From NCBI GenBank assembly GCA_046563655.1, contig CM102288.1, positions 6,510,001 to 6,569,328 of the forward strand: a DNA stretch of 59,328 nt. The letters are read 5' to 3'. The notes under the pieces are model-generated. The model made no database searches, was not told where the DNA came from, and saw only the letters and a list, made by a program, of their open reading frames with translations. The position numbers and the translations under genes were made by a program. Source of the DNA: Yuukianura sp. NJ FZ-2021. Lineage: Eukaryota. Positions 948-31,400 of the stretch are shown in pieces (the first letter of the stretch is position 1; every line of letters begins with the position of its first letter).

Positions 948-2190
948 ATGCAAATTCTACGGTTTCTGCACAGGGGGAGAGTTTTCCAGTTTCCAGTCGT
1001 AGAAAAAAGTATCCTGGCTAAACTGCGCAAGTCCACTGGCTACTCTTTCTCCAAGTGCAAGGAAGCTCTCCAGAAACATGAAAACGATCTAAAACAAGTA
1101 ATCTCTTCAATTAACTTTCCAAAGTAATTAGTTAATTCACTAATTTTAGTAAACTAAACTCACTTTTTGATTGTTTAGGCTGAACAGTGGCTCAAAGCCC
1201 AGGCTCAAGCACACGGTTGGGAGAAGGCGACGAAACTGCAAGGAAGATCCACAGTGCAGGGCCTCGTCTCCATTTTATCTACTCCATCCGACACGGTCAT
1301 CCTGGAGGTCAACTGTGAAACTGACTTTGTTGCAAGGAACAAACGATTCCAAGGGCTCGTCCAGAAAATCACTCAAGGATGCTACCAGTTCACCACCGAA
1401 CAACATTCTGGAGCAATCTTAACCAAGGTACAAAACTTCCTAACAAACTCTTACTAAACTGATGATTCAATTAACTTATAGGATGCTAAACATGACTATT
1501 TTTTATAGCTTCCGTTGACTGGTGATGAGATTGGGAACCTTCCCCTTGGGGAGCGGCCAATCAAGGACGAAGTTGCTTTGGGAATTGGTGACCTTGGAGA
1601 GAACATCAAAACTCGGAGAGGAGTTTGTGTGCACACGGATGGTTCAGTTCTGCTAGCTGGCTACACTCACCCAACACCGGAGGCGCCACTGGGCCAGGAA
1701 ACTGTTCAGTTTGGGAAATACGGAGCAGTCGTCGCTCTGCGTCCAACGGGAGGGGTTTTGAACGACGCTTCCAAGAAATCACTCAGTCTCATCGGTCGGC
1801 AACTCTGTCAACACATCGTGGGTAAGTTCACTTTTCAAAATTTACATTTGCTAAAAAGTATATATGACTTAAAATGTGATCATTTCAGGTATGAATCCAA
1901 AGGAAATTGGTTCTCTAGATGACCCGCCTCCGAAAAGACCTGAAGCGGAGCCAGATCGGCATGAATCGACAGTTGCAGAAACAGGAACTTCTGGAATTGA
2001 AAGCGGACAATTGGAAGGAGAAGGTCAAAGGTCATGTTCAGACGTTGACGAAGAAGTTTTAGTGAACCAGGACTTTCTGCTGGATGCTGACATGACTGTT
2101 CGTGACTTTCTGCTCCAGAACTCAGTGGAGATCCTTGATTTTGTACGTTTTGAATGTGGAGAAAACATAGAACCCACCTACTGTCAATAA
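948..2190 (+). CDS. TSFM: Mitochondrial elongation factor Ts (4 exons: 948-1097, 1179-1427, 1509-1821, 1889-2190)
   Basis: LAKLRKSTGYSFSKCKEAL (EF-Ts N-terminal domain), EVNCETDFVARN signature, IGRQLCQHIVG|MNP, DFVRFECGE; GT-AG introns join in frame. Confidence 0.95.
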
Positions 2191-2606
2191 AGTCCAACCA
2201 AAATTAAAAGTATTTCCAGCCTTTACAATTGCACACTTTTTTTACGGTTTCACATTTTTTAACGATTGCAGTTTTTTTTTGGAAGCATAAAAGGGCCACT
2301 AGTACATTTTAAATTGGAAACTCTCAAATTGCATTTAAGATTCTCAAATTAGACTTGGAATTTTGAAATTAGAATAAAAATTACAGCTTTCTGCGGAGAA
2401 AAGAGATGAAAGGCTTAGAGAAAGTTTGAATATGCGTGAGAAAGCCCACCCCTACGCGGAGGCGTGGCTAGAAAACTGTGTTTTGATTGGTGAAAATGAA
2501 GTGTAGCTCCGCCCCTTCCGTGCAGTCCCCTACTTGAAGTGATTTCTCGTGGTGAAAGTCCATTCCCTGTTCGTTTCAGTGTGAAAGTTGTGTTTGTGGG
2601 TGTACA

Positions 2607-3338
2607 ATGTCCTTCAATTCCACTCCACCAAATGTACCTTCCTCCCCGTTCTTCAGTGACTCAATTTCAGCCACTGGCAACATGAGATTCGAAAGTGAAA
2701 GCAGCGGAAGTGGCGACGACGGTCAGGAAATCAGGGCATTTGTTGGTCAGTACAAAGTCACAGATTTAGATATTTAGTAAAGCAAATTCACATATTTTTG
2801 TAAAAAGTAATAGTTTTTTTTTTTTTTTTTTTTTTAAGTAATAGTATTTTTTAGTAAAAATAATTATTTCGCGAACGTGAAATGGAAAATTAGCGTCCAG
2901 TTTGAACCGGGCTTAACGTTACGTCCAGTCTTGTGGCATCCTGGCATTAAATCACGTCAATTGAAAATATTTAGCGCCTATAATTTCATTTTAGCATTTC
3001 AGCGATTTCATTTGGGCGGCAGCGATTTCAGCATTACCGTTCCAGTTGTGGAGCCTTTTTGTGGAGTAGTACTTAAAGTTTAAAATTGCGTAGGTGTTGG
3101 AGAGGTGAAGGAGCACTTGAGTCGCGAGGAACGACGACGCAGACGCAGAGCCACTCCAAAGTACCGGTCTGCCCATGCCTCCAGGGAACGCGTGCGTGTA
3201 GAAGCCTTCAACTCTGCATTCTCCGAACTCCGATCTCTCCTGCCCACTCTGCCTCCGGACAAACGATTGTCCAAAATAGAAATTCTGCGACTGGCGATCT
3301 GCTACATCGCCTACCTCAACCACGTTCTCCAAAGATGA
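2607..3338 (+). CDS. HLH4C: NSCL/HEN-class bHLH transcription factor (HLH4C/NHLH-like); exons 2607-2745 and 3094-3338
   Basis: RRRRRATPKYRSAHASRERVRVEAFNSAFSELRSLLPTLPPDKRLSKIEILRLAICYIAYLNHVL is the NHLH1/2 bHLH; the upstream exon joins in phase 1 (N-terminal exon less certain). Confidence 0.9.
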
Positions 3339-4637
3339 ACCAATTTCTGCATCATACTGCACAATCACAACCAGTTCTCCAGAGGATTTCAATTAAGTTA
3401 CACTCCTAACTTTATTCAAACACTAACAAATTCATTACTGTAACCATAAGTTTACATTCTGCATTTAAGTTTGTCGTCTTTGTAGAAACCTAAAAGTCTA
3501 AGAATTTGAAGAAAAAAAAATTGTACTGAATAGTTAGTCTTTGGAATCCTTAAGTTAATTGCTGGTATGGGTGCTGAAGTACCTCTGAGATCAGTTTTCA
3601 GAAAAAGTTTCTTGAAATAATTTTTTTTTCGAAATGAAATTTAGAAATTGTGATGAGTGAAATGGTTTTTGAAAAGACTGTCTGCGGAACATTGTGATTG
3701 AGCAAGTAATTGGACAGAGACAATTAGCGTAGAAGCGACAAAGTGTCAAGGGACACGTTCTGCTAAGGGAGGGAGATTACGGGAGGGGATTTGGACAAAA
3801 TTGAAAAATGGAAATGATCAAACAAGTGTCCAAATTATACTCACACAAACACACTTACCACAAAACACTCTTCAAAATGTTTAAATTTAAAAACGTTTTG
3901 AAAGTTTAAGACAAAACGTGGGATTGTCGTAATTTGGGACATATTTAGAGGGAGAAGGGAGGGTGGAAGTGTGTGGAGAGAAAGTGAGTGAGAGTCCCTT
4001 GGGAGAAGAGTGAAAGTGCCCCAGAGTCAAAGAGAGAATTCCTCCGGAGAAAGAGGGAGCAGGTGGCTTTGGAGGACTTTAATCCATTCCGATTGCCCCA
4101 CCACACACACCCACCTGCCCCACCCTCCCAATTAAACAGCCCCACCAACGCATTTCTCACTGTCAGCTTCCCAATCAACCCAGCAGTCGCGGCATTTTAA
4201 AACTTTACACAACGAATTAATGTCAGTTTTCAAAAATTCAATTAAAGTAAAAGACAAATAAGAGCGGGACACCCGCTACATTCATACAGTTGGACAATGG
4301 ACTAAAGTTTTATTACTTTTCAAACCCATTTACTAAATTCCAAAAAACTCATTTACAAAAATGAAATATAAAAACTTGAACTTTGGTTTAGTCGTAAGTT
4401 AAGCTGGAAATTGCGACAAAAGAAGGAAACCACAATTCATTTCGAACGAAACGGAAACCATAGTGGTGACGTCTTTTTTCCTCCAGTCTTCATAGACTCT
4501 CGCAGTTAAAAACGTCCAGACTAATCCATAAAATTCGTAAAATTTAAAAATCAGTGCACTAACGACTAACATCCAAATCCAAATTCATCCGAAGTTTGAG
4601 CCAAGGTCACAACTCACAAGGTCACGAAAACTCCATC

Positions 4638-5032
4638 ATGGGTCGCTGGCTGTCCACTCTCCTCATCTTCCTCGCATCTCTACTCCATCCTCAACGTAAG
4701 TCTGCTCAATCCTGTTTCCACAATTACAAAAATGTTCATTTCAAAATCAAAGTTCGATGGAAATAAATTCCAAAAAGCTTAAACTAAAATACCATTCTGC
4801 AGTGTCCTTGGTGAGCGGGAATTCCGTGCGGACGAAATGGAAGTTTGAAGTTCCGGAGCAGGGGCTGGAAGGGACTGATTTTGTGAAGACAAATCCAGAC
4901 CATGTTTCGAGCAGCGTCTTCGCAGCGATTGAAGGGAGGAGAGTGTTGGTGGAACGAAATGCCGCTCCAGGACTGGAACGCTCCTGCAACTGCTCAAAAG
5001 GCCATTGCTCATGCACTCTCAGAAGAACATGA
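4638..5032 (+). CDS. Orphan small secreted prepropeptide (about 95 aa) with C-terminal CxC-x4-CxC motif; exons 4638-4695, 4803-5032
   Basis: Signal-like MGRWLSTLLIFLASLLHPQLSLVSG; gtaagt...ctgcag phase-1 intron keeps frame; ends ERSCNCSKGHCSCTLRRT*; AATAAA near 5108. Confidence 0.65.
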
Positions 5033-5134
5033 TTCCAAATACTTAAGTCCAACTCTCCAGGTCTCCCTAAAACATTTACAAAAATAAGTTCCTGTGCTTT
5101 CCTGACAAATAAATCAACACTTCAATTTCCATTG

Positions 5135-5734
5135 ACTTACCATTTCAAGTTGAAGAGCTGTTCAATGCTTGGTTCTGTGGAGGACATTGACGTTGAGCAA
5201 CCGTCGTTAGGCGACATATTGATCACAAAAGGCAGCTGGAGAATCCAACAGCCAACGGTGAATTAATTAGGTTGTGATTAAAAAGTTAATCCTAATCCAG
5301 ATTAATCGGTTAACGCAATTAAACTTCCAAAAAGGACTGTCGTTGTCGTCCTCAGCTGTTAAAATAACAATTTCTAAAATTAACAATAATTTGTTTAAAA
5401 AAAACATTTGTATAAGTAACTGTGAAAGCTACGCACGCATTTGCGTCACCCAGTTAATGGAATCATAGTAAATGGGCATACATATACAAATAAAATAAAT
5501 AGCATTAAATATTAACTAAAATAATTATAAAACTATTAAAACCTTTTGCTCGGTAATTATTCTAGTTAAAATTAATTAACTTTCAATTGAATGTTAACGT
5601 CTGACTTAATTTTCTAGTATTTGTATTTTCTAAAAGTGCCCACATGCGAAGGCGGGAAGTGGTAAGGAGAAAGCATCTGTTTGTTGAGCCAAATAATTTT
5701 TCTGGAATTTAAAATTATGCAATTGCCGCCAATG
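5135..5734 (-). pseudogene. Duplicated relic of AUP1 exon 1 plus upstream region
   Basis: Colinear, diverged copy of 18523-19117 including ATG...MSPNDGCSTSMSSTEPSIEQLFNLK and the gtaagtc donor; no downstream AUP1 exons follow. Confidence 0.85.
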
Positions 5735-7210
5735 CACAGTGGTCGGATTCGAAGCAAACAGTTCGGTCGTCTTTTGTAACAAACTTTAATCACAAGGTTA
5801 CCGTTGACAACTGAGTCGGTTGAAAGAATAAACCAGTGAACACTGTACCCATTTACTTAATTGACGACCGGCCAGAACGACACAAAAGACAAAGAATAGT
5901 TTAAATTCACACCGAGTTTTCTTTTTGAAAGTAAGGATTTAGCGTGTCGAAAGTGGTGACGCTAAATCTCAATATAAAGTTCAGTTATGAATGCAAAATC
6001 ACAAATTCGCAAATTATGATTATTGCAACCAAGGAAATCAACAAGAATTTGGATGTACTTTGGATAAGCCTTGTGTCATAACTGAGCATTTCCGGGCGAT
6101 TCCGGCAAGAAAATGTCGAAGACTAAGCCTTCTAGAACGCTAATCACTATTGGGTTTGCCATTAGAGGATGAGGCATTTCGAGGCAAAAAATCAATCGGT
6201 ACATCAATTTTTGGGTCAAAATGACACATAGAGTTGTCAAGACGACGATTTTTCGTTTTTCTTTTAACTAGAGTGGACATGAGGCATTTTTTCAACAAAA
6301 TTTTTGAAGCAAATTAAAAGAGGTAAAAAAACCGATTTCACCTGAACTTTAAGCCCGGTTCTCACGACGAAATTCAAACGTTCTTTCAAACTTTCTCAAA
6401 TTGTTGATAAAAAAAAAGTTAAAAAGACAGTCAAATAATTTTTGACTTCGAAAGGGTGGATCTTTGGTTGGTGAATCGTGGAGCCAAATTAACTTCTTGC
6501 TAATTAACTTTACTGCAAGTGAGATTTGTAGAGAACGGTTGTGGCAGTACTTTAGATACTTTAGAAGGATATCCATAACTTCTGAGCTACAGCTGCTTGA
6601 ACACCCGTGTCAGGTCCATAGTTCCTAAATCACGGGAAAATGACCTGATTTCTGGTAATTTCTACCATTGATAGATACTTATTAGTAAGTAGATAGTAAC
6701 TTAGATGTAGATAGGTGGTTTAGATGTAATTAACTTAAGCATCAGTAATTTAATTAGAATTAGTAAATAGTAACTTCAATTTAACTTTTTGCAAAAGCAA
6801 TTTCAGCAGCAGAAGCAATTGTTGGGTTGCTGCCGCTGCCACCTCTTCTTGGCACACTACTAGTCACCATTTGTATTATGACAGATATGCGCGGATATTT
6901 TGTCTAAAAAAAGCTGTTTTTCGTATTTTTATTCATAATTTTAGAAATTTTGAAAACTGAAAATCTAAATTTCGTCGTTTGTGTGAATCGGGCTTAAAGT
7001 TCAGGTGAAATCGGTTTTTTACCTCTTTTAACCTCTTTTAATTTGCTTCAAAAATTTTGTTGAAAAAATGCCTCATGTCCACTCTAGTTAAAAGAAAAAA
7101 CGAAAAATCGTCGTCTTGACAACTCTATGAAATGACACTGATAAATTAGTTTGTTTACAAAATATATTTGATTCCCTGAGAACCAAACAATAAATAAAAC
7201 AACCACTGTG
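5735..7210. mobile_element. Non-autonomous Transib/RAG-superfamily-like DNA transposon (565 bp without the nested MITE)
   Basis: Inverted termini CACAGTGGT...ACCACTGTG; 5-bp TSD CAATG (5730-5734, 7211-7215); the paralogous locus near 19110-19120 reads gcc-CAATG-ctt, the empty site. Confidence 0.8.
6227..7129. mobile_element. MITE with about 130-bp TIRs and 8-bp TSD (P-element- or hAT-type)
   Basis: TIRs 6227-6357 and 6989-7129 beginning CATAGAGTTGTCAAGACGACG; TSD AAATGACA at 6219-6226 and 7130-7137; no transposase ORF. Confidence 0.9.
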
Positions 7211-7949
7211 CAATGCTTCAACAAGCGTCCTTTCTTCCTTATGAGCACCAAACTAATTTCTGAGTTTCGGTGGAGAAAGTTCTTTCGTCAATTGGAAAGT
7301 TGTGCAAACTACTCGCCCTTTAACGATTAATTTGAAGCTGAAATGGCGACTAAAAGGGCTGAAACAATTTTCACGAGTATATTTCTGGTCACTTCACCAG
7401 ATGAAACACTGACTTCAACATTAATTCCTTGTATTCGCTTAAAAAACTCCATTTTCAAAACTAGAACCAAAACCACAAAGAAAGTAGTGAAAAGAATTGA
7501 GAGAAAGTGGAATTGGAAAGATTTTGAACTTTGACTTTGATTAAACAAACGAGCATGCAAGTAGAACTTGCGTTTTTAGAGTAGACGAAGCCAAAACTGA
7601 AAATAAAGTGAAGTCAACTCAAACAGAGTCTCCCTGTTCTCACGAACTTTTTCCGTTTTTACACTCAAAAAATTGAAACTTTCCTTACGTAATGATGTCG
7701 GAAGAGCATCGCAAATTACTTCTTACATAAGAAAATTGTTACAACTGCCAAAAAACAACAGTTTCAGCATTAATTGGCTTTTTCAGCCGTGTTTCGGTTA
7801 AATACCACTAAAAATGCATTTTTTTAAAATTTCATAAGAAAAGGATAAAGAAAGTTTGGAAAAAAGAAGCAGAAAAAGTGGAAACAAAAAGTTTTTAGAA
7901 CTTTTACTTCTGAGGAACTTTCTCCGTTTTTCCACACAAAAAGTTTGCA

Positions 7950-8400
7950 TTTTAGGGGTTTGGAGTTGGGATGGTCCCCACATGTATTTTTTCCATTGCC
8001 ACCCACTCTCTCCCCCAACATCCAACTCCAAAAGAGTAAAACACAGCTTCATCCTACTCCTTTCGTCTCGCATATAAAAGGGAAGCTCAACAAATTTTTA
8101 TCATTCACTTTTCTGATCTCGTATGAGAGAGGAGAGTAGAGGAGACGCAGTTTCCTTATGTAAACAAACATCGTCTGCTTCTTCTTCACTTCTTTTTAAT
8201 TGCCATCTCTAATTAACTCTTCTTTTAGTAATTAATCGATTGAAACGATTCAAAAAATAAATTTTGAATTTGCGAAAAGATGCTTTGGGGGTTTGGAGTT
8301 GGGATGGTCCCCACATACATTTGTGCCATTGCCACCTCACGCACTCCCCCAACATCCAACTCCAAAAGAGTAAAATTCTGCCTGATTCTACTCCTTGGAG
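7950..8400 (+). repeat. Two diverged direct repeats of about 110 bp (about 7950-8060 and 8285-8400)
   Basis: Shared ggggtttggagttgggatggtccccacat...tcccccaacatccaactccaaaagagtaaaa with internal inverted arms (ttggagttgg / ccaactccaa). Confidence 0.8.
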
Positions 8401-8530
8401 AGTAGGATTGAGGTGATTTTGGTTTGTGTCTCCTTTTATATGGGACCAAGACGAGCACCAACTAGATTCAAGTGCGGACCTCCGGTGTAACAAAAATCCT
8501 CCGCAACTTGGTTTCAGTGATTTTGTCTCA

Positions 8531-8910
8531 CGTTCAGAGTTTCATTGGAGGCTAATTCTCCGAAAACAAGAGAAACTACTGCCTTCTTATCTTAGCATTA
8601 GACGCAGCTGAGTTTTGAACTTGAGATAAAGTCCGCCAAATTTTTTGAAAAATTCAATTAATTAAAATAAAAACAAAAAGCGAACATGAAAACAACGTCA
8701 GAAAGAACTGACCAACTGACTCATTTATCACAGCATCTGGTGAAGATCAAAACTTCAAAACTAATTAGAATTCTAATTTACTAATTAACAGCTGCAGACA
8801 CTAATCACTCCTCATTTATTTCAACTCCAACTTCTAGAGACTACGTTCCAAATCTTCAAGCATCTTCAAATCGTGTAGTGAACAGCACAAAGGATTCATA
8901 GCTGTACGCC
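8531..8910 (+). pseudogene. Duplicated relic of the TECPR1 5' region and first codons
   Basis: Matches 27880-27940 plus 28190-28480; start codon reads GTG instead of ATG (gtg aac agc aca aag gat tca TAG), with a premature stop. Confidence 0.85.
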
Positions 8911-10522: not shown

Positions 10523-10928
10523 GTTGAATTCCGGTTATGATGCAACCTAAACATTAATTAAAGTTGATATAGTCAGTAAATCAAGAGTTAATTAAGAAAC
10601 AACTACCTAAATTAAGTACCCACCTCCACGTATCCCGTACTGTGACGGAGACTGGAGTCTTCTCCTGAGATCACTGTCTATAGTACCTTTAGTCACAGCT
10701 ACATCCAACTTAGGGTCAATTAATCGATTAATCCCTAATTTCCGTCGATTACTTTGTGTTAACTCAATCAGTTGCAATTAAAGAGAGACTTGCTAAAAAA
10801 GAATTACAGCGAAACGGACAGCTGTTTGGAATTGACGAGGGATTGATTGAGGTAATTTTTAGATTCGGGAGCGGACCTAAAAGCTAACAAAAAATTCCGC
10901 CACTTGTTTTTAAATGCTTTTATCTCAA

Positions 10929-11160
10929 GTTCAGAGTTTCATTGGAGGCTAATTCTCCGAAAAAAAGGGAAACTGCGAACATGGTTATCTGAGCATTAGA
11001 CAAATTCTGACTTGAAATTGAGACAAAAGTCCGCCAAATTTTTTGAAAAATTCAAAAGTTAAAATCAAAACAAACAGCATATGGCATAAATGAAAACTAT
11101 TAAGCATATGGTGAAGATCAACAACTAATGAGTATCTTAATTTACTAATTAACAACTGCA
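10929..11160 (+). repeat. Third partial copy of the TECPR1 upstream segment
   Basis: ttcagagtttcattggaggctaattctcc...gtccgccaaattttttgaaaaattca...taacaactgca shared with 8531-8800 and 27880-28372. Confidence 0.8.
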
Positions 11161-17219: not shown

Positions 17220-18606
17220 TCATGACTGTGAAGGGGCATTGAGGAGTCCGTGTTTTCGCATGTACTTCTCCCTCGCCACTTCCACCATGCGTCTCTTCCT
17301 CTCCTGGAAACTGGTCATGCGCTCTGCTGCGTTCTTTGCAAAAGAAGGCTCTGCTATGCTTCTCCTCAGTTCCTTCACTGCCTCATCCACTGACCCTGTC
17401 TTCTCCAGAGCAGCAATCACACTATCAGGAGACAATTGGATTGGATGCAGTTGTTGCTGAACCAAGCGAGCCATGGAAGTCATAGACATGGGCCGAAATG
17501 TCACTTTCTTCCGGTACTCCGCCTTGTCACTACGGCAGAACTTTGTAGAACGAACGTTCAGAGCAGAAGCAATGACGTTTTGAACTCCTACTTTGTCCCA
17601 TCGGCACACAGGCAGGAACCTAAGGAAAACAATAAAAAGTCAACTTTTCATAAAGTATTTGTATCAAAATAAATGTTAAACGTTGGTTTCTAGTTACTTG
17701 ATGCTGTAGTGAGTGTTGATGGAGAGGAGAGTGAAGAACAGCTCCGTAGCAGGACTGCTTTCCAAAGTATTGACGTTGAGAAAGGGGCGAGAGACGGAGA
17801 GGGCAATGGGCTGAACGAGATTTGCGTTTCCTAAGTGCGGGAGGTCGTTGAAGGACAAAAGTCCAGCGTTGCCGTTAGTAGAATCTTCTTCCGGAAAGTA
17901 AATGATGGGAGACGATTCTATGACGTTGGGATTCGTTGTGATTCCGAAGAGGGACTCAAAGTACCATGGAACTGTCGTCTTCTCTCTCTGAAAAACACAA
18001 AATACTTTCACTTTTTAACTAAACTCACAAAACTTTACAGAATACAGAAAGTGTTGGGTCTTACAAAGTGTAGGCCATTCGTGATGGAGTGGATGACAAA
18101 GTGATCTATTGAAGTGACATGGTTGGAGACAAAGGTGTGAGTCCCTTCTTCTGGCACTTCTCCATCCACGGACACGCTCACACCAAGGATTACACCCATC
18201 ACTTCCAGTGCTTTCCTGCCAAACAAATCAACACTATTTTAAATACTTGCAAGTATTTTAGCTGTCTGTCTCTCACCGTTTAAAACTAGACTCCGGAAGA
18301 GCTATTTTGAGAACAAAGAACTGGAGCAGAATGCCCATTCTGATAATCATGACCAACACTCCAATTGGTACATACAAATAGAAAATCCACGAAGGACAGG
18401 AACAACCCTTGCGATCTCCATTGTTCCGCAACCTACATACAATCCAGAAACAATGGTTAATTAAGTTCACACTGCTCTACATTAATTAATTAGTAATTAA
18501 TCAACTAAATAACTCTGTAGGTGACTTACCATTTCAAGTTGAAGAGCTGTTCAATGGTTGGTTCTGTGGAGGACATTGACGTTGAGCAACCGTCGTTAGG
18601 CGACAT
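17220..18606 (-). CDS. AUP1: Ancient ubiquitous protein 1 (lipid-droplet AUP1), 5 exons
   Basis: N-terminal hydrophobic hairpin; acyltransferase-like SNHVTSIDH and FPEEDSTNGNAGLLSF; CUE-like segment; G2BR motif SFQERKRRMVEVAREKY. Confidence 0.9.
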
Positions 18607-19226
18607 GTTTTTTACAGAACAGGAGAATCCCACCAACAGCCAACGGTAAATTAATTAGGCTGTGATTAAAAAGTTAATCCTAATCTAAATTAATCGTTTA
18701 ACACAATTAAACTTCCAAAAGGACTGTGGTTGTCGTCCTCAGCTGTTAAAATAGCAATTTCTAAAATTCCAGCCAGCTGTAAAAAACATTTGCACTGGCA
18801 ACTGTGAAAGGTACACGCACACACTACTCTCACCCAGTTAATAAAAGTATAGTATATGGCCCCACAGATACAAATAAAATATAAAGCACTAATGGTAAAC
18901 TAAAATAATTACAAAACAATTAAAACCTGTTTCTAAGAAATCATTCTAGTTAAAATTAATTAACTTCCAATTGACTGTTCACGACTGACTTAATTTTCTT
19001 GTATTTGTATTTTTAAAAGTGCCCACATGCGAAGGCGGAAAGTGGTGAAGAGAAAGCATCTTGTTGTTGGGCCAAATTATTTTTCTGCAATTTAAAATTA
19101 TGCAATTGCCGCCAATGCTTTCTCGTTCTACGTAAATTAGAATCCCGATTAATTAGCCAACTAATTACAAAATTGATGAAATCAAATTTAATTGTTGAAA
19201 CTTTTCAATTTTGAATTTGTTTTAAT

Positions 19227-21024: not shown

Positions 21025-21300
21025 ATTTTTATTATTCTCTGTTAAGGTGTATTTTCACATTCAGAGACAAATTTTGTAAAAAGTTTATTATTCTTTGTTA
21101 AGGTGTCAATTCACTTTCAGAGACAAATTTTTTAAAAAGTTTATTATTCTTTGTTAAGGTGTCAATTCACATTCAGAGACAAATTCTTTAAAGAGTTTAT
21201 TATTCTCTGTTAAGGTGTAAATTCACATTCAGAGACAAATTTTTTAAAGAGTTTATTGTTCTCTGCTAAGGTGTAAATTCACATTCAGAGACAAACTTTT
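21025..21300 (+). repeat. About 5 diverged copies of the 56-bp satellite unit
   Basis: ttattattctctgttaaggtgtaaattcacattcagagacaaatttt repeats, related to the array at 22150. Confidence 0.85.
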
Positions 21301-21519
21301 CTTTAGAAAACTTTCTTTAAGCAAATTTTGAACTTTTCAAACGTTGTTTTTCTGAATCTTTAGTGGACATTTAAAAAGTTCTTTTAAACACAACTTTTCT
21401 CTAGAGAAACTTTTTTTTAATTTTGCATTACTTTTCAAACGTTGTTTTTTGAATTTTTAGTGGGGGAGGGGGGTTTAAAAAGTTCTATTTTTCAAATATT
21501 AGATCCTTCTTTCTCACCT

Positions 21520-22130
21520 TCGAATCCTTCGCAATTTCCTATTTTTTTAACCATTAAATTCTTAGTTCTAAGCTTTGAGTCCTTCGAAACTTTGTCTTTT
21601 TAACCACTAAATTCTTAATTCTAAGCTTCGAATCCTTCGCCACTTTCTATCTCTTTAACCATTAAATTCTTAGTTCTAAGCTTCGAATTCTTCGCCACTT
21701 TCTATCTCTTTAACCATTAAATTCTTAGTTCTAAGCTTCGACTCCTTCGCCACTTTCTATCTCTTTAACCATTAAATTCTTAGTTCTTAGCTTTGAATCC
21801 TTCGCAACTTTCTATCTTTTTAACCATTAAATTGTTAGTTCTAAGCTTCGAATCCTTCGCCACTTTCTATCTCTTTAACCATTAAATTCTTAGTTCTAAG
21901 CTTCGACTCCTTCGCCACTTTCTATCTCTTTAACCATTAAATTCTTAGTTCTTAGCTTTGAATCCTTCGCAACTTTCTATCTTTTTAACCATTAAATTGT
22001 TAGTTCTAAGCTTCGAATCCTTCGCCACTTTCTATCTCTTTAACCATTAAATTCTTAGTTCTAAGCTTCGAATCCTTCGCCACTTTCTATCTTTTTAACC
22101 ATTAAATTCTTAGTTCTAAGCTTCGAATCC
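21520..22130 (+). repeat. 55-bp tandem repeat, about 11 copies
   Basis: Unit ctaagcttcgaatccttcgccactttctatctctttaaccattaaattcttagtt. Confidence 0.95.
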
Positions 22131-22149
22131 TTAAAGGTATAAATTTACG

Positions 22150-23955
22150 TTCAGAGAGAAATTTTTTAAAGAATTTATTATTCTCTGTTAAGGCATAAAT
22201 ACGCATTCAGAGAGAAATTTTTTAAAGAATTTATTATTCTCTGTTAAGGCATAAATACGCATTCAGAGAGAAATTTTTTAAAGAATTTATTATTCTCTGT
22301 TAAGGCATAAATACGCATTCAGAGAGAAATTTTTTAAAGAATTTATTATTCTCTGTTAAGGCATAAATACGCATTCAGAGAGAAATTTTTTAAAGAATTT
22401 ATTATTCTCTGTTAAGGCATAAATACGCATTCAGAGAGAAATTTTTTAAAGAATTTATTATTCTCTGTTAAGGCATAAATACGCATTCAGAGAGAAATTT
22501 TTTAAAGAATTTATTATTCTCTGTTAAGGCATAAATACGCATTCAGAGAGAAATTTTTTAAAGAATTTATTATTCTCTGTTAAGGCATAAATACGCATTC
22601 AGAGAGAAATTTTTTAAAGAATTTATTATTCTCTGTTAAGGCATAAATACGCATTCAGAGAGAAATTTTTTAAAGAATTTATTATTCTCTGTTAAGGCAT
22701 AAATACGCATTCAGAGAGAAATTTTTTAAAGAATTTATTATTCTCTGTTAAGGCATAAATACGCATTCAGAGAGAAATTTTTTAAAGAATTTATTATTCT
22801 CTGTTAAGGCATAAATACGCATTCAGAGAGAAATTTTTTAAAGAATTTATTATTCTCTGTTAAGGCATAAATACGCATTCAGAGAGAAATTTTTTAAAGA
22901 ATTTATTATTCTCTGTTAAGGCATAAATACGCATTCAGAGAGAAATTTTTTAAAGAATTTATTATTCTCTGTTAAGGCATAAATACGCATTCAGAGAGAA
23001 ATTTTTTAAAGAATTTATTATTCTCTGTTAAGGCATAAATACGCATTCAGAGAGAAATTTTTTAAAGAATTTATTATTCTCTGTTAAGGCATAAATACGC
23101 ATTCAGAGAGAAATTTTTTAAAGAAGTTATTATTCTCTGTTAAGGCATAAATACGCATTTAGAGAGAAATTTTTTAAAGAATTTATTATTCTCTGTTAAG
23201 GCATAAATACGCATTCAGAGAGAAATTTTTTAAAGAATTTATTATTCTCTGTTAAGGCATAAATACGCATTCAGAGAGAAATTTTTTAAAGAAGTTATTA
23301 TTCTCTGTTAAGGCATAAATACGCATTTAGAGAGAAATTTTTTAAAGAATTTATTATTCTCTGTTAAGGCATAAATACGCATTTAGAGAGAAATTTTTTA
23401 AAGAATTTATTATTCTCTGTTAAGGCATAAATACGCATTCAGAGAGAAATTTTTTAAAGAATTTATTATTCTCTGTTAAGGCATAAATACGCATTCAGAG
23501 AGAAATTTTTTAAAGAATTTATTATTCTCTGTTAAGGCATAAATACGCATTCAGAGAGAAATTTTTTAAAGAATTTATTATTCTCTGTTAAGGCATAAAT
23601 ACGCATTCAGAGAGAAATTTTTTAAAGAATTTATTATTCTCTGTTAAGGCATAAATACGCATTCAGAGAGAAATTTTTTAAAGAATTTATTATTCTCTGT
23701 TAAGGCATAAATACGCATTCAGAGAGAAATTTTTTAAAGAATTTATTATTCTCTGTTAAGGCATAAATACGCATTCAGAGAGAAATTTTTTAAAGAATTT
23801 ATTATTCTCTGTTAAGGCATAAATACGCATTCAGAGAGAAATTTTTTAAAGAATTTATTATTCTCTGTTAAGGCATAAATACGCATTCAGAGAGAAATTT
23901 TTTAAAGAATTTATTATTCTCTGTTAAGGCATAAATACGCATTCAGAGAGAAATT
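22150..23955 (+). repeat. 56-bp satellite, left arm, about 32 copies
   Basis: Unit acgcattcagagagaaattttttaaagaatttattattctctgttaaggcataaat; near-identical copies. Confidence 0.97.
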
Positions 23956-24283: not shown

Positions 24284-25045
24284 TCAAGTTGTCGCTGTGT
24301 TATTCCTCCAGGAAATGGCGCTTGATGTACCGGGTGGGCGTTGATATGATCCAGGCTCATGTTGTCTTGCGTTACGTTTTTCTCTTGGCGAGGGTGCACG
24401 AGGGCGACTTCCTAGACTGTTTTGTCGTGATTCCCGGATCTTTCGTCTTTCAGTTCTGGTTTCAATGGTCAAGTCTTCTGTGATGGAGCACACATCTTTG
24501 TTTTGAATGAGTGTCTTCCGTAGTTGGAGTGCTTGTACGCGTTGCGCAAAGGACGACATGCGAACCTTAATTGGGCGAGGTTTATCAGAAGACGGGTTAA
24601 ACTTTCCAATTCTGAATGCATCTTCTACATTAACTCGAACTTGGTAGTGGTTGAAGAAATCGTTGGTAATGTTCGTTGTGTTTTCATTTGTAACTTCTGG
24701 GAGTCCATGGATTAGAACGTTGTTCCGTCTAAGTTCATCTGTAAGACGGGAATTCATTCTTTTCAGTTGATCAATTTCTCTTTGCTGCTGATCAGTTTTC
24801 GTTTGCAATTCTTCGATCTGCGCTTGGTATTTCTCGAGTTTGGTTTCGATGGAGTCGCATCTCGCGTCGATTTTTGTATCAATATTTGCAATATTTGCAA
24901 CCAGTTTTGACATTACCGCCATTAGATCATCGTTTGATACATTTGATCTTTTCAAAGCTGGCTCGTTTCCTGCGTTGGGTTCCGATTCGGCAGCTCGTTT
25001 ACTTCCCTTGTTTTGTGGTAGGAACGGTAGTGTGGATTGGGTCAT
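24284..25045 (-). CDS. LINE ORF1p-like protein (coiled coil plus L1-type RRM), 253 aa from the first ATG, intronless
   Basis: Heptad-rich IETKLEKYQAQIEELQTK...EIDQLKR followed by LRRNNVLIHGLPE, AFRIGK, KPRPIKV and ITEDLT, typical of L1/L2/CR1 ORF1. Confidence 0.85.
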   Translation of the reverse strand: MTQSTLPFLPQNKGSKRAAESEPNAGNEPALKRSNVSNDDLMAVMSKLVANIANIDTKIDARCDSIETKLEKYQAQIEELQTKTDQQQREIDQLKRMNSRLTDELRRNNVLIHGLPEVTNENTTNITNDFFNHYQVRVNVEDAFRIGKFNPSSDKPRPIKVRMSSFAQRVQALQLRKTLIQNKDVCSITEDLTIETRTERRKIRESRQNSLGSRPRAPSPREKRNARQHEPGSYQRPPGTSSAISWRNNTATT

Positions 25046-25149
25046 CTTCTCTGACACGGGAGAGCGGGTTACTTTTGAAATTTCCGAAATCTCGATGTCC
25101 CTTTTACGCTTCCGTAGTTTCCAAATTCAAAAGCCTTAACCAATTTAGC

Positions 25150-26013: not shown

Positions 26014-27875
26014 AGAAATTTTTTAAAGAATTTATTATTCTCTGTTAAGGCATAAATACGCATTCAGAGAGAAATTTTTTAAAGAATTTATTATTCTCTG
26101 TTAAGGCATAAATACGCATTCAGAGAGAAATTTTTTAAAGAATTTATTATTCTCTGTTAAGGCATAAATACGCATTCAGAGAGAAATTTTTTAAAGAATT
26201 TATTATTCTCTGTTAAGGCATAAATACGCATTCAGAGAGAAATTTTTTAAAGAATTTATTATTCTCTGTTAAGGCATAAATACGCATTCAGAGAGAAATT
26301 TTTTAAAGAATTTATTATTCTCTGTTAAGGCATAAATACGCATTCAGAGAGAAATTTTTTAAAGAATTTATTATTCTCTGTTAAGGCATAAATACGCATT
26401 CAGAGAGAAATTTTTTAAAGAATTTATTATTCTCTGTTAAGGCATAAATACGCATTCAGAGAGAAATTTTTTAAAGAATTTATTATTCTCTGTTAAGGCA
26501 TAAATACGCATTCAGAGAGAAATTTTTTAAAGAATTTATTATTCTCTGTTAAGGCATAAATACGCATTCAGAGAGAAATTTTTTAAAGAATTTATTATTC
26601 TCTGTTAAGGCATAAATACGCATTCAGAGAGAAATTTTTTAAAGAATTTATTATTCTCTGTTAAGGCATAAATACGCATTCAGAGAGAAATTTTTTAAAG
26701 AATTTATTATTCTCTGTTAAGGCATAAATACGCATTCAGAGAGAAATTTTTTAAAGAATTTATTATTCTCTGTTAAGGCATAAATACGCATTCAGAGAGA
26801 AATTTTTTAAAAAATTTATTATTCTCTGTTAAGGCATAAATACGCATTCAGAGAGAAATTTTTTAAAAAATTTATTATTCTCTGTTAAGGCATAAATACG
26901 CATTCAGAGAGAAATTTTTTAAAAAATTTATTATTCTCTGTTAAGGCATAAATACGCATTCAGAGAGAAATTTTTTAAAAAATTTATTATTCTCTGTTAA
27001 GGCATAAATACGCATTCAGAGAGAAATTTTTTAAAAAATTTATTATTCTCTGTTAAGGCATAAATACGCATTCAGAGAGAAATTTTTTAAAAAATTTATT
27101 ATTCTCTGTTAAGGCATAAATACGCATTCAGAGAGAAATTTTTTAAAAAATTTATTATTCTCTGTTAAGGCATAAATACGCATTCAGAGAGAAATTTTTT
27201 AAAAAATTTATTATTCTCTGTTAAGGCATAAATACGCATTCAGAGAGAAATTTTTTAAAAAATTTATTATTCTCTGTTAAGGCATAAATACGCATTCAGA
27301 GAGAAATTTTTTAAAGAATTTATTATTCTCTGTTAAGGCATAAATACGCATTCAGAGAGAAATTTTTTAAAGAATTTATTATTCTCTGTTAAGGCATAAA
27401 TACGCATTCAGAGAGAAATTTTTTAAAGAATTTATTATTCTCTGTTAAGGCATAAATACGCATTCAGGGAGAAATTTTTTAAAGAATTTATTATTCTCTG
27501 TTAAGGCATAAATACGCATTCAGAGAGAAATTTTTTAAAGAATTTATTATTCTCTGTTAAGGCATAAATACGCATTCAGAGAGAAATTTTTTAAAGAATT
27601 TATTATTCTCTGTTAAGGCATAAATACGCATTCAGAGAGAAATTTTTTAAAGAATTTATTATTCTCTGTTAAGGCATAAATACGCATTCAGAGAGAAATT
27701 TTTTAAAGAATTTATTATTCTCTGTTAAGGCATAAATACGCATTCAGAGAGAAATTTTTTAAAGAATTTATTATTCTCTGTTAAGGCATAAATACGCATT
27801 CAGAGAGAAATTTTTTAAAGAATTTATTATTCTCTGTTAAGGCATAAATTCGCATTCAGAGACAAATTTTTTAAA
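26014..27875 (+). repeat. 56-bp satellite, right arm, about 33 copies
   Basis: Same unit as 22150-23955, resuming in register after the TSD. Confidence 0.97.
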
Positions 27876-28451
27876 TAATTGGAGGCTAATTCTCTGAAAA
27901 AAGGGAAACTGCGAACATGGTTATCTGAGAATTAGACAATCTTTTATGTGAAATGTTGTTTGTGACTGCCCAGTTTCCTAAAGGGTCACAAAAACTGAAT
28001 TTTTTGGCTACACTAAATCCACAACATTACTGGAATCTGATAAATCGTCAAGTTCAGAGCTATGAACATGAAAACAGCATCTAAGGAACAAAAAAAACGA
28101 TTAAAATTAATATTCATTTTAACTTATATCACAGTTATAAATTAAAAATTAAGTTTTTGTAAAATGCTGAACATAGTTTGGCCACTTTGACTTGAACTTG
28201 AGACAGAAGTCCGCCAAATTTTTTGAAAAATTCAAAAGTTAAAATGAAAACAAGAAGCGAACATGAAAACAATGAACAACGTCAGAAAGAACTGACTCAT
28301 ACTTCATACACAGCATCTGGTGAGGATCAACAACTTAATTTAGTATTTTAATTTACTAATTAACAACTGCAGACACTAATCACTCCTCACTTATTTAAGT
28401 CCAACTTCTAGAGACTACATTCCAAATCTTCAAGCATCTTCAAATCGTGTA

Positions 28452-31400
28452 ATGAACAGCACAAAGGATTCATTACTGTACACTGTAGATCGTGTGGGTC
28501 GTGTTTGGTATTTAAATTCACAAAATGTGGGAAGCCATGGGCCTGGTTTATGGAAATGGACACTTCTGGCCAACCCTAGTCGAGTGGACATCAAGGTAAC
28601 ATTGTTGCAGTTCAATCTAAACACTACGTTAAACAAATCATATCTAATGTTATTTCTTATGAAATCAATCAACAGCGTGTGGCGTCAATAAACGGAGTTG
28701 TTTGGGGAATCGGTTCAGACCATCAGATCTACCTGTATGTTCATAAGCAAGACATTCCAATTAGAGTTAGAGAAGAAACTTATGAAAACCAGGTGAGTAT
28801 GGAAGTTACAATTAAAAATGTGTAATTTTCAGTCAAAAGAAACGATAACTTAACGTTATTCGATGACTTTTTTGTGTGAAGCGATGGAACCCCCTTGGTG
28901 GATTTTGTGCTCAACTCCTGCCGACTGATAGACCCCATTTCTCCAGTGAAGATGGACTGAGTAGCCGTGACAAGGGAAGTATCAAACTGCCGTCAGCCGA
29001 GTCGTGGACGTGGGAATCCGACTGGGCAATTGCGGATACTTTCAGCAATGAACTCGTAGAAGGAGGGTGGAGCTACGCAGTTGACTTCCCTGCTACCTAC
29101 TACCCTCAAAAATCCTGGAATTCGTGCGTGCGTCGTCGGAAGTGGTTCAGAACGCGGAGATTCATTGGATTCAACAAATGGCTTCGGATTGACCCCATCC
29201 ACAAGGATCACACTCAAGTAACAATCCATGTTAATCGTAAACCACAATTAACTTTCGTTGATTAACGTTAAAAAGTTTCAACTGTACTTTTTCTCTGCTT
29301 AGGAGCCGTTCACTGATGTAAGCGTCAATAACTTCGGGTCTACAAAGGAAGTACTTTGTGTTTGGACCGTAACTGTGCTGGGTCAAGTTTATTTCCGTTC
29401 AGGAGTCACTTTGACACATCCAGAAGGAACTCACTGGGAAAAAGCTCCAGTTCCAAGGGGACTGGAAGCGTGTCAAGTATCTGTCGCTGGAACTGGAACT
29501 CCATTTGTCGTGGCATGGACCGGGTCTTGTATGTATCGCAGTGGCATAGCACCACACTCCCTCTCCGGTAATCAACATTGTAATTAATTTAGTCAATTTG
29601 AAATCAAACTTGGATGTCAACTTTTCAAATTTCCTTTTGTTTTTGTGAGGAATTGAATGGGAAGAAGTAAGTGGTCCTCCAGGAGGCCTTGCTCAACTGT
29701 CAGCTGGCGACAGGACACTTTGGGCCATCAGTCGAGACAGAAAATGCTGGATTTTAAAAGGCGATTTGCAATCAATCTCAAACAAAACAGCGCTGGAATG
29801 GAATGAGATCCCGTCAAAACTAAAACTTGTTTCAGTTAGCAAAAATGACATGGTAAGTGTCATGAAAATGCAAAATTAATTAAATTAAAAACAAATAACT
29901 AAAAATGATTAAGTCAATTAACTTAGTTAGAATTGGAATTTCGTTTGATTTGAGGTTGTTCTTGGCCTCGGTGACGACGATAGAACGATTTATACTCGCA
30001 TAGGCATCACACCCGACCAAATTTCTGGACAAGGCTGGAAAGAAGTGTTGAGCAGAGTGTGTTGGGACACTCTGTCCACAGTTTCTACTTCTTCGTCATC
30101 ATCAGTCACTGCTGACAGACTAATGGACCAAGTTGACAGTGGACATGCTTCCGCCGGAGACTCTGCGTCACTCGACTCCATTCGTCCAGACTTCCCAGAA
30201 CAATTTCAGCTCGAAGTGGAAGCGTCAAATTCTGACTCAGAAGTGGAGGACGTCAGTTTCTGCTGGGTGGATGGAGGATGTTTGTCATGCCTCAAGTAAG
30301 CCTTTAGTCTCACTTTTTTTCGACAATTGACTTGATTTTGTGTATTTGCAATATTTTGTTTAAACCAATGACAGATCCACCAACGACGGAGACTTGGAAG
30401 TTGGTCCATGGCGGGATGAAATCCTAAGTGGGCTGCAGTCGCTCAAAGTGAAGCAGCAGAGTTTCCAGTACCCCAATGCAGTTGATGACGATGGATCAGA
30501 GTGGCATGGGAAGTCAACTACTGCCAGAATGCTGCAGCATGGTCAAGAGTCAGTGTGGGTCAAAGGTCAACTGGAAATTGTGAACAACCACACACTCGTT
30601 TTCCACCAAGACCTTCAGCGTACTTGGCTCTGCTCACTTAAGGACGTCCTCAGTCTCCTTCGCACTCGAGAAATCTCGTCCAGTTTTACACTCCGAGTGA
30701 GGAATGCAATTGAACAGGGAGTAGCGGACTTTGTTTCTTTCAAGTTTTCGTGAGTTTAAAACAAAGTTAATTAGTCATTAATTAATTATCAATTAAGTTA
30801 ATTATTTTGATTTGTGACCTTGTAGAAGTGAAAAGGATTTGTGGGATTGGCACTCGACGATAAGTGAATTGTCAGAGAAGAATCCAGAAGAGTTCTCACT
30901 GGGGAATTTGTGGCTAACGACTAACAATGGAGAGCTCCTGTCCAGTGGACTCATCAAAATGGCGGGTAATCAATTGAAATAGAAACAGTAAATAGAAAAT
31001 ATTAAAAATTTAAATAGAAATCCTTGATAGATTCTGGTCTAAAAGTGTGAATTTTGACTTTGTTTTGGTTTAGATACGGCAGTAGCGGCGGACGTTGCGG
31101 TGCCTTCGGGTGAGTATAATTCGAATGGAGTCTTACAATAATCGAGTATGTTAATTGACTCATGTTTTTGAATGTAGACTCTGGCTACAGGAACTCCCAT
31201 CCGTTGATCAAAGGATTTCTGCCTGGAAGTACTTTGAAGATTGATATTTCGGTTCCAGCGGAAGCAGAGGGCTTCATGTTGAATTTGGAAGGGAGAAATG
31301 TAATTGCTTTCCACTTCAATCCCAGATTTCCAGACGAAGTAGTTGTGAGAAACACGAAGAGAAACGGAGTTTGGGAAATGGAGGAGAGAGATGGAGTTTT

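What the first reader, a model, noticed from the sequence alone, without database searches (positions are those of the whole stretch)
5735..7210. Transib/RAG-type element with RSS-like asymmetric bipartite ends (spacers 30 vs 41 bp)
Seen: both ends start with the exact RSS heptamer CACAGTG (9-bp perfect TIR CACAGTGGT), then diverge, then share a second motif: TTTTGTAACAAACT (5772-5785) and TTTTGTAAACAAACT (reverse complement of 7148-7162). Heptamer-to-motif spacers are 30 and 41 bp, an 11-bp difference or about one helical turn. The 5-bp TSD CAATG is supported by the uninterrupted paralog near 19110-19120. Known: Transib and RAG-like transposons have CAC-initial termini and 5-bp TSDs; V(D)J RSSs use 12/23 spacers (also 11 apart); ProtoRAG has asymmetric bipartite TIRs, while described Transibs mostly have continuous symmetric TIRs. 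Inference: this may be the non-autonomous partner of an arthropod Transib/RAG-like transposase with a 12/23-like end-pairing rule. Caveat: single copy, and the inner motif is AT-rich.
Basis: partly seen in the sequence, partly recalled or inferred. Interest (0 to 1): 0.8.

Follow-up and report, generated by a model that had tools for sequence, protein, structure and literature searches.

The report
Transib-type mini-transposon with nested MITE
This is a small, non-coding cut-and-paste transposon of the Transib type (relatives of the RAG1 recombinase) that itself carries a second small transposon; its unequal ends are real in this copy, but such unequal Transib ends are already in print, so it is an ordinary new family member.

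Summary
The element spans 5735-7210, has a perfect 9-bp inverted end CACAGTGGT and is flanked by the 5-bp duplication CAATG. A second shared block lies 30 bp (left) and 41 bp (right) from the heptamer.

The insertion is real. Contigs in 4 of 4 public runs join 5729 to 7211, which is an empty site with one CAATG. Many distinct contigs cover the element, so the family is multi-copy.

The native element is 565 bp, and only 73 bp of it lie right of the nested insert.

The paralog near 19118 supports only the left boundary, because it diverges 3 bases past the TSD.

Best reading: a non-autonomous Transib-superfamily transposon in an arthropod whose transferrin is closest to springtail proteins. The target cCAATGc fits a published Transib preference, cCAWTGc.

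The inner block is modestly beyond chance (p about 0.01). I could not test its conservation or spacing across copies, because no genome was held and no copy sequences could be fetched.

Asymmetric, bipartite Transib ends were published in 2005 and 2022. This is a new member of a known kind, with low to moderate interest.

The parts
5730..5734 (.). Left copy of the 5-bp target site duplication CAATG. The original site reads gccgC-CAATG-Cttc.
   Evidence: The joint 5729->7211, with 4-6 letters that fit either side, is in 4 of 4 runs.
5735..5743 (+). Left terminal inverted repeat CACAGTGGT (heptamer 5735-5741).
   Evidence: Summed depth rises at about 5735, and contigs with unlike flanks start at 5733.
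5742..5771 (+). Left spacer, 30 bp, GC 0.53, unrelated to the right spacer.
5772..5792 (+). Left inner (subterminal) block TTTTGTAACAAACTTTAATCA.
   Evidence: Local alignment with the right end.
5735..6226 (+). Left part (492 bp) of the 565-bp host element, non-coding.
6219..6226 (.). Left copy of the 8-bp TSD AAATGACA of the nested element.
   Evidence: The joint 6218->7130 skips 911 with 9 letters that fit either side.
6227..7129 (.). Nested 903-bp foldback MITE. Its ends are CATAGAGTTG.../...CAACTCTATG. Inverted arms of about 200 bp lie at 6227-6413 and 6926-7129 and are 86% alike.
   Evidence: Host copies without it appear as joints and loose ends, where the arms also have by far the highest summed depth.
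7130..7137 (.). Right copy of the 8-bp TSD AAATGACA of the nested element.
7138..7210 (+). Right part (73 bp) of the host element.
7139..7162 (-). Right inner block. On the minus strand it reads TTTTGTAAACAAACTAATTTATCA. It starts 1 bp from the nested element's TSD.
   Evidence: Variant forms in other copies appear (tables 5c and 7).
7163..7203 (-). Right spacer, 41 bp, GC 0.27.
7202..7210 (-). Right terminal inverted repeat (reverse complement of CACAGTGGT; heptamer 7204-7210).
7211..7215 (.). Right copy of the TSD CAATG.

Best explanation
Positions 5735-7210 are one insertion of a non-autonomous DNA transposon of the Transib superfamily. The native element is 565 bp. A second, unrelated foldback MITE of 903 bp landed 73 bp from its right end.

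The inferred mechanism is as follows. A Transib transposase, a RAG1-core-like DDE enzyme encoded elsewhere in the genome, binds both ends. It nicks at the CAC of the heptamer, releases the element by the nick-hairpin route, and inserts it with a 5-bp staggered cut into a palindromic cCAWTGc-like target, which gives the CAATG duplication.

The insertion appears to be absent from the sampled public individuals, which show the empty site, so the family moved recently.

Beyond the 9-bp terminal repeat, the two ends share one further 21-24-nt block at unequal distances (30 and 41 bp). I read this block as a distal binding site of the transposase. That would make the ends bipartite and asymmetric, as already described for some Transib families, for ProtoRAG and for RSSs.

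Shown: the insertion, its TSD, its borders, the nested element, and multi-copy status.
Inferred: the superfamily (from TSD length, end sequence and target), the enzyme and its chemistry, and any role of the inner block or its spacing.
For: **Sequence.** The TIR, TSD and inner block are as stated, and a chance pair of this kind is rare.

**Public contigs (4 runs from 2 samples in 2 studies).**
- The joint 5729->7211 is present in 4 of 4 runs (2, 2, 1 and 2 contigs), with 33-53 letters on the shorter side and 4-6 letters shared.
- Summed depth rises about tenfold at 5735.
- At 7164, 20, 15, 15 and 11 distinct contigs carry T. At 5796, 10, 7, 13 and 6 contigs carry C. So there are many distinct copies.
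- Host copies without the nested MITE exist: 6218->7130 in X2 and X4, 6222->7138 in X2, X3 and X4, and loose ends at 6227 and 7130 in X1-X3.
- At 5920 and 5963, all depth in X1 and X2 carries another letter. Only 0.51-0.59 of the sampled words are held in X1-X3. This exact copy is therefore probably absent where the empty site is present.

**Coding.** No frame of 90 aa or more between stops, and no Rfam match.

**Literature.**
- Transib has 5-bp TSDs and CAC-heptamer ends, and Transib-N2_AG targets cCAWTGc. Several families have RSS12/RSS23-like ends (PMC1131882, passages and section 9).
- Asymmetric Transib TIRs (PMC9435367, passages).
- Nick-hairpin cleavage and invariably 5-bp TSDs for Hztransib (PMC4840297, passages).
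Against: - No transposase gene is in the window: 25 of the 34 frames of 130 aa or more were scanned against Pfam and none is a transposase. No genome was held to look for one.
- Only 9 bp of the ends are a perfect inverted repeat.
- There is no A-rich nonamer at 12 or 23 bp from either heptamer (read), so the ends do not fit the printed 38-bp Transib consensus.
- The inner block rests on one copy, is AT-rich, and has p of only about 0.01.
- Other copies vary inside it: AGTTGGTATACAAAA and AGTTTGTCTAC against AGTTTGTTTACAAAA here (tables 7 and 5c). Two low-depth variants change its length by 1 and 3 nt.
- Joints were taken at 80% likeness, and the right flank is itself repetitive, so an empty-site contig could be paralogous and not allelic.
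- Contigs show presence, not absence.
Confidence: 0.75

Rival explanations
1. It is a Transib-type element, but the inner block has no role. It would be a chance AT-rich likeness or a leftover of an older, longer inverted repeat. The transposase would need only the terminal 9-17 bp, and the 30/41 difference would mean nothing.
For: - The block reaches only p of about 0.01.
- The 14-mer is not enriched elsewhere in the window: 2 matches at up to 2 mismatches against 2.49 expected.
- Other copies differ inside the block (tables 5c and 7).
- The offset drifts from 11 to 14 nt along the block.
- Invertebrate RAGL enzymes are thought to rely mainly on the terminal 15-17 bp (PMC7204232, passage).
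Against: - Among the 40 best-supported letter differences shown, none lies in 5735-5795 and only one (7164) lies in 7138-7210, while the interior shows about one per 40 bp (table 3). 440 more differences were not shown.
- The only spacer indels listed (+1 at 5750, -1 at 5755) cancel out.
- The nested MITE landed 1 bp outside the block and left it whole.
Confidence: 0.35
2. It is a non-autonomous derivative of a RAG-like (RAG1L-RAG2L) transposon and not of Transib.
For: RAGL transposons also have CAC heptamers and 5-bp TSDs, and some have asymmetric ends (PMC7204232, PMC10462144, PMC8289069; passages).
Against: - The bases next to the heptamers (GTCGGATTCG and GTTGTTTTAT) are not the A-rich TR2 element described for RAGL-B ends.
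- In the passages I read, RAGL elements are listed for deuterostomes, molluscs, nemerteans, cnidarians and protists, while Transib is listed for many insects.
- No gene could be examined.
Confidence: 0.07
3. It is a member of another cut-and-paste superfamily with CA... ends (CACTA/Chapaev-like, hAT-like) and an atypical TSD.
For: No transposase is linked to these ends, and classification rests on TSD length and end sequence alone.
Against: - The TSD is exactly 5 bp, as the empty-site joint shows.
- Transib was described as the only eukaryotic DNA-transposon superfamily with 5-bp TSDs as of 2005.
- hAT ends have G, not C, at position 3 and make 8-bp TSDs (PMC1131882, passages).
Confidence: 0.05
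4. It is not a mobile element: a chance inverted repeat beside a chance direct repeat.
For: A 14-letter combined match of any sequence is not rare in 59 kb. This is my own estimate, about 0.7 expected over all pairs within 3 kb.
Against: - Pairs that start with a CAC heptamer and have 7 or more matching end letters plus a TSD averaged 0.03 per simulated window.
- The empty site is in 4 of 4 runs, copies without the nested insert exist, and many distinct contigs end or start at the borders.
Confidence: 0.02

Closest known systems
Transib families with RSS12/RSS23-like ends: Transib5 of Drosophila melanogaster, and Transib2_AG and TransibN1-N3_AG of Anopheles gambiae (Kapitonov and Jurka 2005, PMC1131882)
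   Same: The 5-bp TSD and the CAC heptamer ends. The non-autonomous form. The two ends carry the distal element at distances that differ by about 11 bp. The target cCAATGc fits the cCAWTGc printed for Transib-N2_AG.
   Different: The distal block sits at 30/41 bp and not 12/23, and it is not the A-rich nonamer of the printed consensus. The host is not a mosquito: its transferrin is closest to springtail proteins at 51% and 41% identity. I could not see the published end alignments, because Figure 4 and Figure S4 are images or PDF, so no letter-by-letter comparison was made.
ProtoRAG of amphioxus: TR1 heptamer, a 27/31-bp TRsp spacer, and a 9-bp TR5 (PMC8289069)
   Same: Bipartite ends with a heptamer, a long spacer of about 30 bp with poor conservation between the two ends, a conserved distal block, unequal spacer lengths and a 5-bp TSD.
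   Different: The spacer difference is 4 bp there and 11 bp here. ProtoRAG has a TR2 element next to the heptamer, which I do not see here. ProtoRAG encodes RAG1L and RAG2L, whereas nothing is encoded here. Function was tested there and not here.
V(D)J recombination signal sequences (12/23 rule)
   Same: An identical heptamer, CACAGTG. Two signal types whose spacers differ by 11 bp. The inner block contains ACAAAC, which recalls the start of the nonamer ACAAAAACC quoted.
   Different: The spacers are 30/41 and not 12/23. The rest of the block does not match the nonamer. In RAG the rule depends on RAG2 (PMC4840297), which Transib lacks. No pairing rule has been tested here.
Hztransib of Helicoverpa zea, the active reference Transib
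   Same: The inferred chemistry (nick-hairpin cleavage, 5-bp TSD, a heptamer essential for activity), taken from passages of PMC4840297.
   Different: Hztransib is autonomous (3.5 kb). Its ends are said to have little or no likeness to a nonamer. The structural paper on its end recognition (Liu et al. 2019) was not held.
Foldback MITEs with 8-bp TSDs (hAT- or P-like), for the nested part
   Same: An 8-bp TSD, long inverted arms, no coding capacity and a very high copy number.
   Different: The end starts CAT, not the CAG/TAG with G at position 3 stated for hAT ends. The superfamily was not settled.

Membership tests
Transib superfamily (non-autonomous member) | 5-bp target site duplication | tested here: met
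   CAATG lies on both sides. An empty-site joint that skips 1481 = 1476 + 5, with 4-6 shared letters, is in 4 of 4 runs.
Transib superfamily (non-autonomous member) | Ends begin with a 5'-CAC heptamer (printed consensus CACAATG) | tested here: met
   CACAGTG is at both ends.
Transib superfamily (non-autonomous member) | A 38-bp end with an A-rich nonamer-like block 23 bp (or 12 bp) from the heptamer | tested here: not met
   Read, there is no A-rich 9-mer at 12 or 23 bp at either end. The only shared block is at 30/41 bp. This is a consensus feature of 21 families and not an absolute requirement.
Transib superfamily (non-autonomous member) | Mobilised by a Transib (RAG1-core-like DDE) transposase encoded by an autonomous copy with the same ends | not testable with these tools
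   No genome is held. No transposase is among the 25 of 34 long frames scanned. Scans of public collections gave only chance bacterial matches.
Transib superfamily (non-autonomous member) | Several copies with unrelated flanks | tested here: met
   Between 6 and 20 distinct contigs per run cover given places. Three X3 contigs have unlike flanks before 5733 (agreement 0.56). Source.
Transib superfamily (non-autonomous member) | Target preference (GC-rich or palindromic, for example cCAWTGc) | tested here: inconclusive
   This one site is cCAATGc. The only hints from other copies are TG before the left end in 3 X3 contigs and CA after the right end in one X4 contig.
12/23-like asymmetric bipartite ends | Two conserved elements at each end | tested here: inconclusive
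   The heptamer is present. The inner block has p of about 0.01 in this copy. Conservation across copies was seen only through fragments.
12/23-like asymmetric bipartite ends | Two fixed, different spacer lengths across the family | tested here: inconclusive
   The spacers are 30/41 in this copy. The only listed spacer indels cancel out (5750 and 5755), and a 30-nt variant of the right inner region has the same length. However, 76 indel rows and 440 letter rows were not shown.
12/23-like asymmetric bipartite ends | Preference for pairing of unlike ends in cleavage or transposition | not testable with these tools
   This needs an enzyme and an assay.
RAG-like (RAG1L-RAG2L) transposons | A-rich TR2 element next to the heptamer (RAGL-B) | tested here: not met
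   The neighbouring bases are GTCGGATTCG and GTTGTTTTAT.
RAG-like (RAG1L-RAG2L) transposons | A convergent RAG1L-RAG2L gene pair in the autonomous copy | not testable with these tools
   No genome is held.
hAT-like MITE (nested element) | 8-bp TSD | tested here: met
   AAATGACA lies on both sides. A joint that skips 911 = 903 + 8 is in X2 and X4.
hAT-like MITE (nested element) | G at the third position of the end | tested here: not met
   The end reads CATAGAG. The rule is quoted from PMC1131882.

The most novel reading that the evidence does not exclude
This would be a recently active Transib family, in a springtail-like arthropod, whose two ends carry the same distal binding block at fixed spacers of 30 and 41 bp. 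That is one helical turn apart, with ProtoRAG-like long spacers. A transposase without RAG2 would then impose an unlike-ends pairing rule by itself. It would give a natural test of whether the 12/23 principle predates RAG2.
Probability: 0.2. Interest if true: 0.55.

Novelty: new member of a known kind. Interest (0 to 1): 0.3.

Why it matters
As it stands, this is a sound annotation: a polymorphic, hence recently mobile, non-autonomous Transib in a poorly sampled arthropod lineage, with a clear nested-insertion history.

Its wider value would lie only in the end structure. If the 30/41 layout is fixed across copies and required for transposition, it would add a third spacer geometry to the 12/23 of RSSs and some Transibs and the 27/31 of ProtoRAG. 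It would also bear on whether unlike-end pairing can exist without RAG2. The idea of asymmetric Transib ends is itself already published.

Tried and rejected
- **Whole genome.** None is held, so the proposed genome-wide BLAST of the ends and the search for an autonomous copy could not be done.
- **Window self-comparison.** There is no second copy of the element.
- **Scans of public collections with a 21-nt left-end word.**
  - Metagenomes gave 1 hit, L001. Only 22 nt match, inside what reads like a bacterial gene.
  - Prokaryote genomes gave 1 hit, L002. It is a 30-nt match at 90% inside a long open frame of a Microbacteriaceae MAG.
  - Viral contigs gave 0 hits for the left end, a right-end word and the nested MITE end.
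  - I treat all hits as chance, so no copies were obtained.
- **Earlier findings of this scan.** There was nothing for this place or sequence. The 8 findings shown, of 23 that hold the word Transib, concern Naegleria and do not bear on this locus.
- **Rfam.** No match in 5000-8500.
- **Papers and figures I could not see.**
  - Liu et al. 2019, the Hztransib structures, is not held.
  - The figures and Figure S4 of PMC1131882 hold the published Transib end alignments. They could show that this family's ends match a described one.
- **The paralog near 19118 as proof of the empty site.** Rejected. It shares the last 30 letters up to 5735 but only CTT beyond the TSD.
- **Reading the ends as 12/23 with an A-rich nonamer.** Rejected on inspection.
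- **Depth as copy number.** Not used as such, because the tool warns against it. I counted distinct contigs instead.

Full report
**1. The observation**

- CAATG lies at 5730-5734 and at 7211-7215.
- CACAGTGGT lies at 5735-5743, and its reverse complement at 7202-7210.
- A 14/15-nt motif lies at 5772-5785 and at 7148-7162 (reverse complement).
- The spacers between heptamer and motif are 30 and 41 bp.

The 9-mer occurs nowhere else in the window (2 matches, 0.31 expected, 3 of 100 shuffles reach 2).

I scanned the window for any CACNNTG...CANNGTG pair within 6 kb that has identical 5-bp flanks.
- Two pairs came up. The other one (32302-33765) shares only 3 end letters.
- In 60 simulated windows the mean was 0.27 such pairs, and 0.03 with 7 or more identical end letters.

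It extends to 21 nt on the left (5772-5792) and 24 nt on the right (7139-7162), with two small indels. Its score of 25 was reached by:
- 7 of 1000 shuffles;
- 7 of 1000 Markov sequences;
- 19 of 1480 random pairs of window pieces.

The spacers themselves are unrelated (693 of 2000 shuffles reach their alignment score; GC 0.53 against 0.27). Because of the indels, the offset between the ends is 11 nt only at the outer edge of the block. Further in it becomes 12 and then 14.

**2.

*The nested element.* Positions 6227-7129 are a separate 903-bp foldback element.
- It has inverted arms of about 200 bp at 6227-6413 and 6926-7129, 86% alike.
- Its ends read CATAGAGTTG... and ...CAACTCTATG.
- It is flanked by the 8-bp duplication AAATGACA at 6219-6226 and 7130-7137.

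The native element is therefore 565 bp, and only 73 bp of it lie to the right of the nested insert. The insert sits 1 bp from the inner edge of the right block.

*The paralog.* The match 5133-5735 to 18522-19118 (85.5% identity) stops exactly at the insertion point. Beyond the TSD the two share only CTT. The paralog therefore supports the left border and not the empty site.

**3. Evidence from public runs**

No genome is held. Five runs hold part of 5300-7600. They come from two studies and are labelled organisms A and B.

I laid the contigs of four runs on 5000-7900 at 80% likeness. X1-X3 are one sample of organism A, and X4 is organism B.

*Empty site.* A joint from 5729 to 7211 skips 1481 = 1476 + 5 letters, and 4-6 letters fit either side. 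It is present in 4 of 4 runs (2, 2, 1 and 2 contigs), with 33-53 letters on the shorter side. This is the site with a single CAATG.

*Probable absence of this copy.*
- At 5920 and 5963 all depth in X1 and X2 carries another letter than the window.
- X1-X3 hold only 0.51-0.59 of the sampled words.
- This exact copy is therefore probably not in that sample, although contigs show presence and not absence.
- I read the insertion as polymorphic. Because the right flank is itself repetitive, a paralogous empty site cannot be fully excluded.

*Many copies.*
- Summed depth rises about tenfold at 5735. The tool warns that this figure is not a copy number.
- Many distinct contigs cover the element: 20, 15, 15 and 11 contigs carry T at 7164, and 10, 7, 13 and 6 carry C at 5796.
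- Three X3 contigs with unlike flanks begin at 5733.

*Host copies without the nested element.*
- 6218->7130 skips 911, with 9 shared letters, in X2 and X4.
- 6222->7138 appears in X2, X3 and X4.
- Loose ends at 6227 and 7130 appear in X1-X3.

*Head-to-tail contig.* In X4 one contig of depth 84 joins 7212 back to 5735, that is, right end to left end. I could not tell tandem copies from circles.

**4. Are the ends a family trait?**

In favour:
- Of the 40 best-supported letter differences shown, none lies in 5735-5795 and one (7164 A>T) lies in 7138-7210. The interior shows about one per 40 bp.
- The only spacer indels listed (+1 behind 5750, -1 at 5755, in the same X3 depth class) cancel out.
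- A 30-nt variant of the right inner region has the same length as here.

Against or limiting:
- 440 letter rows and 76 indel rows were not shown.
- The variant copies differ inside the block: AGTTGGTATACAAAA and AGTTTGTCTAC against AGTTTGTTTACAAAA here.
- Two low-depth variants change the block length by 1 and 3 nt (tables 5c and 7).

I call conservation of the block and of the 30/41 spacing untested, not refuted.

**5. What it is**

The element has no frame of 90 aa or more between stops and no Rfam match. The window holds no transposase among the 25 of 34 long frames scanned; the hits were galectin, transferrin, Pex24p-like and QVR domains.

The host is an arthropod. The only two database proteins that match a transferrin exon are from the springtails Allacma fusca (51% identity) and Orchesella cincta (41%).

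A 5-bp TSD with CAC-heptamer ends defines Transib and its RAG-like relatives. According to the passages I read in Kapitonov and Jurka 2005:
- Transib was the only eukaryotic DNA-transposon superfamily with 5-bp TSDs.
- Its 38-bp end consensus is CACAATG, a 23-bp spacer and an A-rich nonamer.
- Transib-N2_AG prefers cCAWTGc targets. The site here is cCAATGc.

The ends here do not have an A-rich nonamer at 12 or 23 bp, so that consensus feature is not met. The A-rich TR2 element of RAGL-B ends is also absent.

I place the element in Transib with confidence of about 0.75. RAGL gets about 0.07 and other superfamilies about 0.05.

**6. How it most likely works (inferred)**

A Transib transposase made elsewhere binds both ends. 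It nicks at the heptamer, forms hairpins on the flanks, and inserts the element with a 5-bp stagger. The chemistry is as described for Hztransib in passages of PMC4840297.

The shared inner block is a candidate distal binding site. Its unequal distance from the two heptamers would make the ends functionally unlike.

**7. Comparison with what is known**

Asymmetric Transib ends are in print.
- Kapitonov and Jurka 2005 name Transib5, Transib2_AG and TransibN1-N3_AG as having RSS12-like 5' ends and RSS23-like 3' ends.
- Yakovenko et al. 2021 build a hypothesis on them.
- Tao et al. 2022 state that Subgroup I Transibs all have asymmetric TIRs and that Subgroup II has both kinds.
- ProtoRAG ends are bipartite with 27/31-bp spacers, and the unlike pair works best (PMC8289069).

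What differs here is the geometry (30/41) and the host lineage. A search of the paper library for Transib together with Collembola found one paper, and it gives only a repeat-table line.

**8. Verdict**

The Transib-type reading is supported. The pairing-rule reading is untested, and the concept is already published. This is a new member of a known kind, with interest of about 0.3.

Noticed in passing
window 6227-7129: The arms of the nested foldback MITE have by far the highest summed contig depth of the stretch: 24,000-45,000 in X1 and X3, against about 200 for the single-copy flank. It is therefore probably a very abundant family. Its superfamily is unsettled: it has an 8-bp TSD but its ends start CAT.
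   Followed up: partly
window 7212 -> 5735 (run X4, organism B): One contig of depth 84 (single-copy contigs there are about 3-8) joins the right end, plus CA, back to the left end, with 83 letters on the shorter side. This could be tandem head-to-tail copies or a circle-like junction. It is not resolved.
   Followed up: no
window 7216-7900: The right flank of the insertion is itself a diverged repeat: summed depth is 1,500-5,000 in X1, and contigs are about 85-90% alike. Internal direct repeats lie at 7951-8062 and 8284-8396. Another contig joins 5733 to 7287 in X2 and X3, which suggests a paralogous locus.
   Followed up: partly
window 5133-5735 and 18522-19118: A 600-bp duplicated segment (85.5% identity) whose right border coincides with the insertion point. 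I did not look into what the segment is.
   Followed up: no
window 21028-23955 and 26014-27880: Two large arrays of a 56-bp AT-rich satellite (GC about 0.25). Long blocks are 98-100% identical between the arrays. They flank a region with a 280-aa frame (24284-25126) that has weak Pfam matches to mostly coiled-coil families.
   Followed up: no
window 47649-48192 and 55872-56520: Tandem repeats with a 90-bp period (92-99% alike) that lie inside long open frames at 47611-48324 and 55762-56514. They may be repetitive coding sequence.
   Followed up: no
window 28867-32411 and 43258-45214: Gene content: two frames with Pex24p-like domains, one galectin frame and two transferrin frames. The transferrin frame is closest to springtail proteins.
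   Followed up: partly
window 8463-8907, 10860-11160 and 28188-28481: Another dispersed repeat, with copies 73-86% alike. It is not classified.
   Followed up: no
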